From assembly GCA_038740245.1 (NCBI GenBank), contig JAVYLZ010000023.1, positions 1 to 10,259 of the forward strand: a stretch of DNA of 10,259 bases. Direction: 5' to 3'. How positions within the stretch are numbered: the stretch's first letter is position 1; each line of letters starts with the position of its first letter. The stretch comes from Candidatus Micrarchaeia archaeon (lineage in GTDB: Archaea; Micrarchaeota; Micrarchaeia; CAILAH01). A program made the position numbers. Below, piece after piece: positions 1 to 3,000 of the stretch.

Positions 1-3000
1 CGCTTACACTGCCCACATCAACCCTGAACATCATGTTAAACGGCTTTACCTCGCCGAACTTGGCCGCACCGCATACCGGGCACTTGATGCCATTCTGCTG
101 TATCGCTTCCGTCATCTCGGCAAGTGACATGTGCGAAGCATCCATTCCCAGCGCCTCATTTATAAGATGGTCAGCACGGAACCTGCGCTTGCAAGCCAAG
201 CACTCGGCAAGCGGGTCGTTGAAGTTTTCCACGTGGCCGCTTGCCTTCAGGGCCTGCTCGGGAAGTATGCTTGCACCGTCAATTTCCAGGAAGCCGTCCT
301 GCTTCAGGAATATCTCGCGCCAAAGCGCGATTATGCGCTGGCGGATTGCCGTGCCCACCGGGCCGTAATCATAAAATCCTGCAAGCGGGTTATAAATCTC
401 GGATGTTGGGATTATGACTGCGCGCTTGACAAGTATGCTGTAAAGCTTCTCGTGCATAGCCCCATAATAGATATGGAAACTTAATTAATTTGCCTGCCCA
501 AAAGCCTATTTATGAGCGCAATTTCACGTGATGAGCTTCTCAGGAAGGTTAAAGACCAGCTTAAGAATGCGTACACCACTGAGGACTTTGTCCAGCAGGC
601 CTCCCTTACCATGGATGACCTTGACCACGTGCTAAACGTGATGTTTGAGCACCTGCACAACTGGTACTCAATATACCTGCCTGAGCTTCAGGATACAGAC
701 GACAGGCGTGTGTATCTTGAGATTGTGGAGAAATACTCAAAGGAGGACCCGAAAAGTATAAGCAACTTAAGTGAAGAGGCAAAGAAACATGTGCCGGCCG
801 GTGAATCAATCGGCGCGCGTGTCAACAAGGAGGACCTTGAGGCGCTTAGGGAATTTGCAAGGCGGCTCAGGGAGATGTACGACCTTCGCGAGTACCTGGA
901 CAATTACAGGAACAAGAAGGTTGAATCCATAGCAAAGAACCTCTCATACCTGCTGGGGACTGCACTTGCTACAAAGCTTATAGTGGAGGCCAAGGGCCTC
1001 AAGCGGCTCGCCAACCTGCCGGCCAGCAGCATACAGGTGCTTGGTGCTGAAAAGGCGCTGTTCATGCACCTTACTGCACATACACGGCCCCCCAAGCACG
1101 GCATCATATTCCTGCACCCCGCACTGAGAGGCATGAAAAGGGCATACAGGGGCAAGGTTGCGCGGATGATTGCCGCAAAGGTATCAATTGCGGCAAAAGC
1201 CGATGCGTACAGCAAGAATTTCATCGCGCCCGCCCTCAAGGAAGACCTTGAGAAAAAAATCAAGGCGCTCGTGAAATGAGTGGAGTGCACTATGCTGAAG
1301 CTGCTTGCCTTTTCCGACCTGCACGGCAGCAGGTATGCCCTTGACAGGCTGAAAGCGCTGTTTGCAGGGAGGAAATATGATGCGGTACTAATTTGCGGGG
1401 ACATTATTGACTATTCTGGGATTGGGTTCCTGGACGAGCTGCTCGCCTCCATGGGCACTACTCCGTGCTTTGCAATCCCGGGAAACATAGACACCCCGGA
1501 CGTATCAAGGCGGCTAGCAGAAGCTGGCGTTTCAGTGGACCGCCAAGTGCGCGCTTTCAATGGGTTTGAAGTGTTCGGGATAGGGGGGGCAGTGCGCGGG
1601 CCGTTCGGCACGCCGAACGAGTATGACGATAATGAGCTATGGGCCCGGCTGCAAAAAATCGCACTAAACCATCCATCCATTGTGCTGTCGCATTCGCCGC
1701 CGTACGGCTTTTTTGATGATGTTGGGGGTGCGCATGTTGGCTCGCGCAGTGTGCTTAAATTCATGGACAGGAACATGCCGGTCCTCCTTGCGTGCGGCCA
1801 CATACACCAGCACGAAGGCATTGTGCGGCACGGCAAAACAACAATAGTCAAGCTGCCCGCTGCAAAAGAGAAAGGTGCGGCAACAATTACGATAAGAAAT
1901 TCCGCTGGGGAATATGCCGTTGAAATGCAAAAAATAAGGCTCTAAAAAATTTATTCCTTAGGCAAGGATTTCTCCTTGAAAATCTCCGTCTTAATTACCT
2001 CAAACCTCTTTACGGGCACAATCTTCCTGAGCTTGGGGTATACCTGCGCGGAAAGCTTCTTGAAGAGCACTTCCTGCATAAACTCGTCATAGCTCAGCGC
2101 TGCCGCCCGCTCAATTATTACCTTCTCGGCAATCTTGCGCAGCGATATGCGGGTGGCGTTGCTTACCTTGTTGGCCGCAACAATTGCGCTCTTTACGCTC
2201 ACGTTGACGCCGTCCTTGGTCTTCACCTTGACGACATCATCAACGAGCGACATCCTCCTGCGCGCAAGCGTCCTGAGATAGCTGCGTATGAGCTCATGGC
2301 CGACCAGCGTTGTATAGGCGGTCTTGCCCTTGACCTCGCTGACACGCAGGTTGACACGCGTATAGCTGTGCGATATCTCGCCCGTGAGATCGCTAAGGTT
2401 CACCACAACCATGCGGTCCATAAGGCTCGCATCATCAATGGCGAGCACGTCGCCGATCCTCTTCTCATCAAACACCTTGGGTGCGATGACTGAATACCAG
2501 GATTTAACCTTCCACTTGTCTGTGCGTGCCATCCAATTACCTCACAAGAAGTGCTGCTTTCTCCGGGTCATACTTCCAGTTGTTAAGCCGCCCGGTGCGG
2601 TTAAGGTAGCTTACAGTCCTCCTTATCTTTGCCTCTATGTGCTCAAGCTTTATCCTGTTGCTCTTGTCCGCGCGGTTGGCCTTCAGGTGCCTCCTAACGC
2701 GCACCGCACGCTTGATAAGGTCCATAAGGTCAGGCGGAAATTCGCGCTTCGCGCCCTTCTCGGCAAGTATTTTTGAGAGCCGCTTGCCGGTTGCCGCCTT
2801 TACATCGGGCACCGCATACTGGTCGCGCAGGATTATGCCTATTTGCGCGGGCTCCTTGCCTTCCTTGGCCAGCTTCTCAATAATTGCCTCTATTTCCTCG
2901 GGCTTCTTGTCAACCCATGAAGGGTTCTCCCTAGGGAAATGCCGTTTTGACCGTCTTGACTTGCCACCTTTGCGAGTGTGCAAACGTACCATTCAATACC

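What a model noticed while it worked through the whole genome (the two positions that open the first line are those of the whole stretch)
512..1279. Nop5 without its fibrillarin-binding N-terminal domain
The box C/D RNP scaffold Nop5 of this genome is 255 aa and starts where residue 119 of the 414-aa M. jannaschii protein aligns, so the ~115-residue N-terminal domain that holds fibrillarin is missing, and nop5 is not next to the fibrillarin gene. I read it as a minimal Nop5 in which a single N-terminal helix (residues 2-21) has taken over fibrillarin docking. New would be the smallest natural box C/D methylation core, shared by the phylum, useful for dissecting how the methyltransferase is positioned.
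Evidence so far: Swiss-Prot: residues 20-253 align to 119-358 of MJ0694; Pfam Nop domain 34-251 only. Open frame around the gene is 264 aa and the divergent GlyRS gene starts 55 nt upstream. All 24 other Micrarchaeota genomes sampled have one Nop hit; 13 lie in open frames of 258-303 aa, too short for the domain, and two of the longest frames (419, 456 aa) are stop-free upstream DNA without likeness; tblastn with those frames finds nothing else in this genome. Fibrillarin g00069 (C2:1975-2637) is full length, 53% to Pyrococcus FlpA. Complex model Nop5+fibrillarin: ipSAE 0.81, best of 3 controls 0.00; that mark was reached by 51 of 78 solved complexes and 2 of 108 mismatched pairs; runs agree in at least 90% [...]
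(Added by a program. Inside this text positions count along the whole contig: contig position 1 is position 1 of the stretch shown here. "Call 12" and the like, gene names such as g00115 and contig names such as C1 are that model's own, and its searches are not shown. The text may have been shortened before it was handed on; [...] marks where a part breaks off. The agent that wrote the report below was given it as the finding of a first reader that could run no searches.)

Follow-up and report, generated by a model that had tools for sequence, protein, structure and literature searches.

The report
Nop5 stripped to its docking helix
In this tiny archaeon and many of its relatives, the scaffold protein of the RNA-guided rRNA methylation machine has lost almost the whole domain that holds the methylating enzyme and keeps only one ancestral helix of it, which probably does the holding alone.

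Summary
In detail: Nop5 (512-1279) is 255 aa, and an in-frame stop 9 codons upstream plus a divergent GlyRS gene leave no room for the N-terminal domain. The reading needs three corrections. (1) The helix did not take over docking: it is the last helix (alpha6) of the ancestral domain, already a fibrillarin contact in solved structures; what is lost is the dead RuvC-like core. (2) It is not confined to Micrarchaeota: 70 of 70 Micrarchaeota, 30 of 30 Iainarchaeota and 10 of 30 Nanoarchaeota genes read are helix-only, with eroded intermediates, and one origin is rejected (AU p=0.0014). (3) It is not the shortest Nop5; the minimal part is the docking module. The machine looks intact: fibrillarin, L7Ae and a conserved box C/D guide RNA matching the 16S decoding site are in the genome; no stand-alone copy of the lost core was found; residues 1-34 alone dock on fibrillarin in a model (0.88, best control 0.02; a like complex is solved). 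Partner fibrillarins turn acidic on the helix that faced the lost core. Binding and activity are untested. The scan noted the loss once before, in another Micrarchaeota genome. New variant of a known system.

The parts
512..1279 (+). nop5 gene, 255 aa, lacking the alpha/beta (dead RuvC-like) core of the N-terminal domain
   Evidence: AlphaFold2 model pLDDT 93.8 aligns over 1-255 to 3PLA_A 113-376, Z 22.8, rmsd 3.5, 252 aligned
515..574 (+). residues 2-21: retained last helix (alpha6) of the N-terminal domain, predicted fibrillarin dock (helix 6-20 in the model)
   Evidence: homology to alpha6; modelled contacts; contact face more conserved
575..586 (+). residues 22-25: short linker (likely hinge) ending in the conserved Asp25, before the first coiled-coil helix
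   Evidence: break between helices 6-20 and 23-55 in the model; D in 71 of 75 rows; hinge role inferred from PMC7089733 passages
611..1264 (+). Pfam Nop region (coiled coil, tip, RNA-binding Nop domain), residues 34-251
   Evidence: PF01798 E 1.5e-50; RNA-binding motifs invariant in alignment A1
482..484 (+). in-frame stop codon that closes the frame 9 codons above the start
1..457 (-). 5' part of the divergent glycine--tRNA ligase gene (runs off the contig); bounds the space upstream of nop5; not part of the RNP
   Evidence: TIGR00389 E 2.8e-47; same arrangement in 5 relatives

Best explanation
This is the genome's only, working Nop5. It has deleted the alpha/beta core of its N-terminal domain (the inactive RuvC-like fold) and kept that domain's last helix, shortened by about one turn. 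L7Ae and the Nop domain bind boxes C/D of the guide RNA, the coiled coil dimerises, and the single helix lies on fibrillarin's helix alpha3 and neighbouring edge strand (residues about 103-123), joined to the coiled coil by the 22-25 linker, so fibrillarin can swing on to the guide-substrate duplex and methylate the fifth nucleotide upstream of box D. Fibrillarin's alpha4, which in solved complexes sits between Nop5 alpha5 and alpha6, loses half of its cover and has drifted to polar/acidic residues in most such lineages. The core was lost more than once in DPANN archaea, through graded erosion. Shown here: the loss, the helix's ancestry, the spread, the presence of all four components. Modelled: the docking site. 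Inferred: binding in the cell, catalysis, hinge, the cause of the alpha4 drift.
For: Helix ancestry: gap-free alignment to the last N-terminal-domain helix of full-length Nop5; a profile of 75 short Nop5s aligns from S. solfataricus residue 121, inside its 1-132 domain; the model aligns to 3PLA_A from residue 113; a profile made only from 54 full-length non-DPANN alpha6 segments scores best in the homologous register for 38 of 45 Micrarchaeota and 20 of 30 Iainarchaeota, and at one shared +1 offset for 10 of 10 short and 13 of 15 long Nanoarchaeota. PMC7962484 names alpha6 as a fibrillarin contact. Docking: Nop5 1-34 with fibrillarin scores 0.88, best of 3 controls 0.02, runs agree in at least 90% of contacts, partner pLDDT at least 71; the mark was reached by 116 of 157 solved and 2 of 215 mismatched pairs, roughly only, as my alignments were used. 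The 10 modelled contact positions in 6-21 are more conserved than the 6 others (1.88 vs 2.69 bits), Arg6 in 65 of 70 rows. Machine intact: Nop in 150 of 151 and fibrillarin in 150 of 151 genomes; L7Ae; a C/D RNA at C31:4751-4808 whose D guide pairs 10 bp with 16S helix 44, conserved in 21 of 151 genomes, reversed control 0. No stand-alone core found. Fibrillarin alpha4 has Asp/Glu in 23 of 31, 22 of 24 and 7 of 9 partners of short Nop5s against 0 of 7, 2 of 14 and 0 of 50 of the others.
Against: Nothing was measured: no binding, activity or RNA data. The complex pass may be from memory of solved Nop5-fibrillarin structures. For this very protein the register test is ambiguous (0.2 in register, 0.8 at -4) and its own fibrillarin lacks the acidic alpha4. 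The aromatic residues of alpha6 that pack on the conserved fibrillarin Tyr (S. solfataricus Y113/Y114/L117) fall at residues 1, 2 and 5 here and are not kept, and Tyr97 is not among the confident contacts. In yeast, charge swaps between fibrillarin alpha4 and strand beta1 of the core abolished binding, so the core matters elsewhere. The alpha4 trend rests on only 3-4 independent pairs, not significant. The conserved face of the helix could pack on something else. The genome is 81% complete and lacks rRNA, so guide targets come from relatives; the D' guide match is marginal (57 of 1000 shuffles).
Confidence: 0.8

Rival explanations
1. A separate protein (a split-off copy of the core, or an unrelated adaptor) supplies the missing surface and clamps fibrillarin together with the helix.
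For: The core carries binding energy in yeast. Core sequences diverge fast: PF21572 passes its cut-off in only 1 of the 4 control archaea that have Nop5. The best PF21572 hit in the genome is a 125-aa Toprim protein 3.2 kb away (13.7-15.6 bits, cut-off 27.8). The assembly is 81% complete.
Against: My own core profile (21 sequences) finds nothing in this genome at E<=1 and only scattered weak hits in 5 of 101 genomes, none over the first strands, while it finds the core as best hit in 4 of 4 Nanoarchaeota controls. The Toprim protein gives hhalign probability 0.2% against that profile, is a PRK04017-like protein beside dnaG and has relatives in 3 of 5 genomes with long Nop5. The polar, length-variable fibrillarin alpha4 suggests an exposed surface.
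Confidence: 0.08
2. Nop5 no longer holds fibrillarin stably: the Nop5-L7Ae-guide particle acts as an rRNA folding chaperone or recruits fibrillarin only fleetingly through RNA, and fibrillarin works partly on its own.
For: Most of the ancestral interface is gone; the two genes are unlinked in this genome; my scan found only one clear C/D RNA; Prp31 lacks the domain and binds no methyltransferase (PMC11213020).
Against: The helix and one face of it are conserved across three phyla, whereas Prp31 aligns only from profile position 26, after the helix; Nop5 and fibrillarin co-occur almost everywhere and are neighbours in 28 of 30 Iainarchaeota loci; the guide keeps a fixed distance to box D in 20 of 22 matches; the model docks the helix.
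Confidence: 0.07
3. One reading: a newly formed helix replaced the lost domain and took over docking.
For: The helix has its own signature in short Nop5s (conserved Arg6, an apparent new N-cap, more Lys/Arg), and this protein's own register score is ambiguous.
Against: Gap-free continuity with alpha6 in sequence, profile and structure alignments; register test; Nanoarchaeota show every stage of erosion in front of the same helix.
Confidence: 0.03
4. The helix-only form is ancestral (like the solo-Nop TasA proteins) and the core was added in other archaea.
For: DPANN may branch deep (recalled); PMC12045711 proposes solo-Nop proteins as the ancestral form; counts of change on my tree cannot tell gain from loss.
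Against: Helix-only genes nest among core-bearing Nanoarchaeota with eroded intermediates; one clade of short forms is rejected; the core is homologous to the IS110 RuvC domain, which argues that it is older than Nop5.
Confidence: 0.02

Closest known systems
Archaeal Nop5 (aNOP56) of S. solfataricus (3ID5, 3PLA) and P. furiosus (2NNW, 3NMU)
   Same: Coiled coil, tip and Nop domain (E 9e-50; Z 22.8 over 252 residues); last N-terminal-domain helix; same partners in the genome.
   Different: The roughly 100-110 residues before alpha6 are absent; no basic C-terminal tail; falls far below the NCBIfam aNOP56 cut-off (242 of 452 bits).
A. fulgidus Nop5 (1NT2), the known small natural Nop5
   Same: Similar total size (258 residues in the entry); reduced N-terminal domain.
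   Different: It keeps a folded 71-residue domain (PMC7962484) and is short elsewhere (169 residues aligned); here about 20 residues remain and the tip region is kept.
Prp31
   Same: Nop fold without the RuvC-like domain (PMC11213020; Z 19.6).
   Different: Prp31 matches only from profile position 26, without the docking helix, scores far lower (E 5.6e-18 vs 9e-50), is eukaryotic and spliceosomal.
TIGR-Tas solo-Nop protein TasA / IS110 recombinase
   Same: Nop-domain dimer with a two-guide RNA; TasA also has no N-terminal enzyme domain (PMC12045711 passages).
   Different: Single-copy chromosomal gene among translation genes, no repeat array within 1-3000, box C/D Nop5 motifs, K-turn type guide and L7Ae present.

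Membership tests
Archaeal Nop5 / aNOP56 | Nop domain with the conserved RNA-binding motifs | tested here: met
   PF01798 172 bits, cut-off 25.4; invariant columns 175-184 and 193-197
Archaeal Nop5 / aNOP56 | Coiled-coil pair and overall fold | tested here: met
   helices 23-55 and 106-140; Z 22.8 to 3PLA_A; dimer formation itself not modelled
Archaeal Nop5 / aNOP56 | Folded alpha/beta N-terminal domain (PF21572, inactive RuvC-like) | tested here: not met
   no room in the frame; no PF21572 or own-profile hit; hence a variant, not a canonical member
Archaeal Nop5 / aNOP56 | Fibrillarin-contacting last helix (alpha6) of the N-terminal domain | tested here: met
   shortened by about a turn, aromatic cluster not kept
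Archaeal Nop5 / aNOP56 | Binds fibrillarin | tested here: inconclusive
   model only: 0.88 vs best control 0.02, a like complex is solved
Archaeal box C/D sRNP | Fibrillarin, L7Ae and C/D guide RNA in the same genome | tested here: met
   fibrillarin, L7Ae, guide RNA
Archaeal box C/D sRNP | Guide-directed 2'-O-methylation | not testable with these tools
   needs reconstitution or RiboMethSeq
Archaeal Nop5 / aNOP56 | nop5-fibrillarin gene pair (typical, not defining) | tested here: not met
   separate contigs here; neighbours in at least 6 other Micrarchaeota and 28 of 30 Iainarchaeota loci
TIGR-Tas (TasA) | Adjacent tandem guide array | tested here: not met
   only short chance repeats in window 1-3000
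Prp31 | Closer likeness to Prp31 than to Nop5; no docking helix | tested here: not met

The most novel reading that the evidence does not exclude
Several DPANN lineages have independently discarded the whole transposon-derived RuvC fold from Nop5, showing that one roughly 20-residue helix is enough to recruit and position fibrillarin for guided methylation; fibrillarin's freed alpha4 surface co-evolved each time, and in some Micrarchaeota a long Arg/Gly-rich disordered tail grew in the domain's place. This would be a natural minimal programmable RNA 2'-O-methyltransferase and a portable helix tag for hanging other enzymes on a guide-RNA scaffold.
Probability: 0.55. Interest if true: 0.65.

Novelty: new variant of a known kind. 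Interest (0 to 1): 0.5.

Why it matters
The Nop5 N-terminal domain is treated as the fibrillarin-binding unit, and was recently recognised as a dead RuvC fold inherited from IS110-like elements plus an inserted helix proposed to serve fibrillarin recruitment (PMC11213020). These genes are the natural deletion experiment: the RuvC fold goes, the helix stays, repeatedly. They make it directly testable whether the fold adds anything to affinity or catalysis, give a much smaller docking module for structural work or for engineering guided RNA methylation, and show a graded loss of a domain together with change on the partner's surface. It refines a known machine rather than revealing a new activity.

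Tried and rejected
Start-codon or assembly artefact: rejected. Split-off core gene: not found with PF21572 (0 of 151 over cut-off; weak model) or my profile; the Toprim neighbour was rejected. Long open frames hiding a core: all 26 frames of 359 aa or more were read; they are C-terminal tails, Arg/Gly-rich N-terminal tails or stop-free upstream DNA, at most 5.3 bits on the core profile; mis-anchored some of the 40 later loci and was redone. A strict C/D scan found nothing in genome or controls; a looser one found the C31 RNA. Rfam gave only sub-threshold C/D hits on it. rRNA motifs were not found in this assembly. Sigma-70 scan near the RNA: nothing, and not suited to archaea. TIGR-like array: none. 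Names for 10 short Nop5 representatives: only one gave a phylum, so Altiarchaeota, Aenigmatarchaeota and other DPANN groups were not sampled. Independent-pair test of the fibrillarin trend: too few pairs. Sequence look-up in earlier findings: nothing.

Full report
OBSERVATION. Window 512-1279(+) encodes 255 aa. An in-frame TAA at 482-484 closes the frame 9 codons upstream, and a glycine--tRNA ligase gene starts at 457 on the other strand. The same divergent pair is present in 5 of 5 close relatives checked, so the short N-terminus is real. Pfam finds only the Nop region, 34-251; NCBIfam aNOP56 matches from position 128 of 417; residues 14-252 align to 126-373 of S. solfataricus (Ss) Nop5. Fibrillarin (220 aa) lies on contig C2.

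WHAT IS LOST AND WHAT IS KEPT. In PMC7962484 (outline, passages and sections 8-10 read) the N-terminal domain is Ss 1-132, P. furiosus 1-123, A. fulgidus 1-71; its last helix, alpha6, packs aromatic residues round a conserved fibrillarin Tyr, and fibrillarin alpha4 inserts between Nop5 alpha5 and alpha6. The helix at 6-20 of my AlphaFold2 model (mean pLDDT 93.8) is that alpha6. It aligns without a gap to the last domain helix of full-length Nop5s. A profile of 75 short Nop5s aligns from Ss residue 121. The model aligns over 1-255 to 113-376 of the active complex 3PLA (Z 22.8, rmsd 3.5, 252 aligned). A profile made only from 54 full-length, non-DPANN alpha6 segments (mostly Bathyarchaeia) scores best in the homologous register for 38 of 45 Micrarchaeota and 20 of 30 Iainarchaeota, and at one shared +1 offset for 10 of 10 short and 13 of 15 long Nanoarchaeota; for this protein itself the result is ambiguous. 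The helix is cut by about a turn: Ss Y113, Y114 and L117 fall at residues 1, 2 and 5 and are not kept. PMC11213020 (parts 1-2 of 5 and passages read) and PMC12045711 (passages) describe the domain as an inactive RuvC-like fold; the first singles out an inserted helix as the likely adaptation for fibrillarin recruitment. I infer that this is the helix kept here.

SPREAD. Nop has one match in 150 of 151 genomes of the window's phylum, fibrillarin in 150 of 151 (the tallies include the unpublished G029, whose DNA I did not read). 108 of 150 open frames are 330 aa or less. I read 70 of the 149 relatives' genes: the 30 best-scoring and 40 chosen ones that complete all 26 frames of 359 aa or more. 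All 70 start the folded part with the helix and none has the core (at most 5.3 bits on my core profile, against 13.8 or more for 12 of 30 Nanoarchaeota). Named loci gave entry to two more phyla. In the phylum of a Ca. Iainarchaeum record, 51 of 51 genomes have Nop; all 30 read are helix-only and 28 have fibrillarin just downstream. In the phylum of Nanopusillus, 46 of 61 have Nop; of 30 read I class 13 as long, 7 as eroded and 10 as helix-only, by length and by eye. On a tree of 73 Nop regions without the N-terminus the short state needs 10 changes, and holding the 37 short rows together is rejected (AU p 0.0014, quick tree, LG+G4). So the core was most likely lost more than once. Other DPANN phyla were not sampled. 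At least 6 Micrarchaeota keep nop5 beside fibrillarin (read off, not a full count). Shorter Nop5 frames than this one exist (236-246 aa), so only the docking module is minimal.

IS THE CORE ELSEWHERE? PF21572 passes its cut-off in 0 of 151 genomes, but also in only 1 control archaeon. My 21-sequence core profile finds nothing here at E<=1, weak scattered hits in 5 of 101 genomes, and the true core as best hit in 4 of 4 Nanoarchaeota controls, one of them related to the training set. The weak PF21572 hit on the Toprim protein at 4474-4851 is not upheld. The genome is 81% complete and an unrelated adaptor cannot be excluded.

DOES THE HELIX HOLD FIBRILLARIN? Residues 1-34 with fibrillarin scored 0.88 against a best control of 0.02; the runs agree in at least 90% of contacts, partner pLDDT at least 71; the mark was reached by 116 of 157 solved and 2 of 215 mismatched pairs, counts that hold only roughly with my alignments. 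A like complex is solved, so this shows likeness, not binding. Contacts are Nop5 2-4, 6, 9-10, 12-14, 16-17, 20-21 on fibrillarin 103-123 and 134. Those positions are more conserved in short Nop5s than the rest of the helix (1.88 vs 2.69 bits; Arg6 in 65 of 70). After seeing polar alpha4 residues in fibrillarins of short-Nop5 genomes I counted Asp/Glu in the three residues after Tyr132: 23 of 31 Micrarchaeota, 22 of 24 Iainarchaeota and 7 of 9 helix-only Nanoarchaeota, against 0 of 7 eroded, 2 of 14 long Nanoarchaeota and 0 of 50 others. The Nanoarchaeota had not been seen when the measure was chosen. Against it: this genome's fibrillarin is an exception, the Micrarchaeota fibrillarins were not all matched to a Nop5 that I read, and only 3-4 independent pairs are supported; they go the expected way (2.4 of 3, 3.1 of 4, almost never opposite) without significance. 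In yeast the alpha4-core contact is needed for binding, so affinity may be lower here.

THE REST OF THE MACHINE. L7Ae is at C10:1238-1504. One intergenic box C-D'-C'-D RNA with a single mismatch lies at C31:4751-4808; nothing as good appeared in four controls. The assembly has no rRNA, so I used relatives: the D guide pairs 10 bp with 16S helix 44 in 3 of 4 (9 of 1000 shuffles as good in the same-genus genome), the D' guide 9 bp with the same-genus 16S (57 of 1000, marginal). The fifth-base rule points to the equivalent of E. coli A1408 (numbering recalled), a site predicted in S. acidocaldarius and N. equitans in PMC4644070 (passages). Guide plus box D recurs in 21 of 151 genomes, reversed control 0; 16 of 22 matches parse as full C/D RNAs, 4 more look so by eye and 2 do not.

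MECHANISM AND RIVALS. Best reading (0.8): a working C/D methylation particle in which one retained helix tethers fibrillarin through a short hinge (flexible domain-to-coil loops in PMC7089733, passages). Rivals: an extra adaptor (0.08), loss of stable fibrillarin recruitment (0.07), a newly made helix (0.03), an ancestral helix-only state (0.02).

NOVELTY. Searches: Nop5/Micrarchaeota/fibrillarin (none of 20 listed names Micrarchaeota), Nop5+DPANN (3 papers, none on this by title and abstract start), Nop5+Woesearchaeota and Nop56+Micrarchaeota (0); the review PMC7994747 does not name Micrarchaeota or DPANN. PMC11213020 kept only Nop5 hits of 300-700 aa, which would drop this protein. Its supplements and those of PMC12045711 were not seen and may list short forms; most subscription papers are not searchable. 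The scan noted the loss before in another Micrarchaeota genome, with an Arg/Gly tail and recruitment left open (e1-1089464). Verdict: a real, apparently undescribed variant of a well-known system; interest 0.5.

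Noticed in passing
G000:C31:4751-4808 (+) = L226:3252-3309; relatives L237-L258: A box C/D guide RNA whose D guide matches the 16S decoding site; in many relatives the D' guide matches the opposite strand of helix 44, so one RNA would cover both strands. 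No Rfam family at threshold.
   Followed up: partly
L021, L260, L261, L265, L266, L270, L271, L277 (N-terminal); L263 and others (C-terminal): 8 of the 70 Micrarchaeota Nop5 genes read carry Arg/Gly/Glu-rich low-complexity N-terminal tails, some over 200 aa, in place of the domain; others have long repetitive C-terminal tails.
   Followed up: partly
L279-L283 (G005, G007, G052, G080, G033): These Nop5s also seem to have shortened the tip region between the coiled-coil helices, giving frames down to 236 aa.
   Followed up: no
L001:1975-2637 (G000 fibrillarin): One-residue deletions in alpha4 and alpha5 relative to Pyrococcus and Sulfolobus, and a Trp at 120 that touches the modelled helix where relatives have Ile/Leu/Val.
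   Followed up: partly
window 4474-4851 (-): Small Toprim protein (PRK04017-like) beside dnaG; weak chance-level hit to the Nop5 N-terminal Pfam model.
   Followed up: yes
window 1280-1945 (+): Calcineurin-like metallophosphoesterase directly after the nop5 stop codon, possibly co-transcribed; no link to the RNP tested.
   Followed up: no
window 8986-10236 (-): 416-aa protein with an AmpD-like N-acetylmuramoyl-L-alanine amidase region (288-390, E 1e-16, below cut-off) and two repeats that resemble peptidoglycan-binding motifs (recalled): a possible bacterial-wall hydrolase in a DPANN archaeon.
   Followed up: no
window 6318-6848 (+): 176-aa protein with no Pfam or NCBIfam family, directly before a KaiC-like ATPase.
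   Followed up: no
L233-L236, L231: 16S genes of relatives span 2.0-3.0 kb and one 23S 4.9 kb, which points to large insertions or introns.
   Followed up: no
phylum of G155: 15 of 61 Nanoarchaeota genomes gave no Nop match; loss of the system or incomplete assemblies, not told apart.
   Followed up: no
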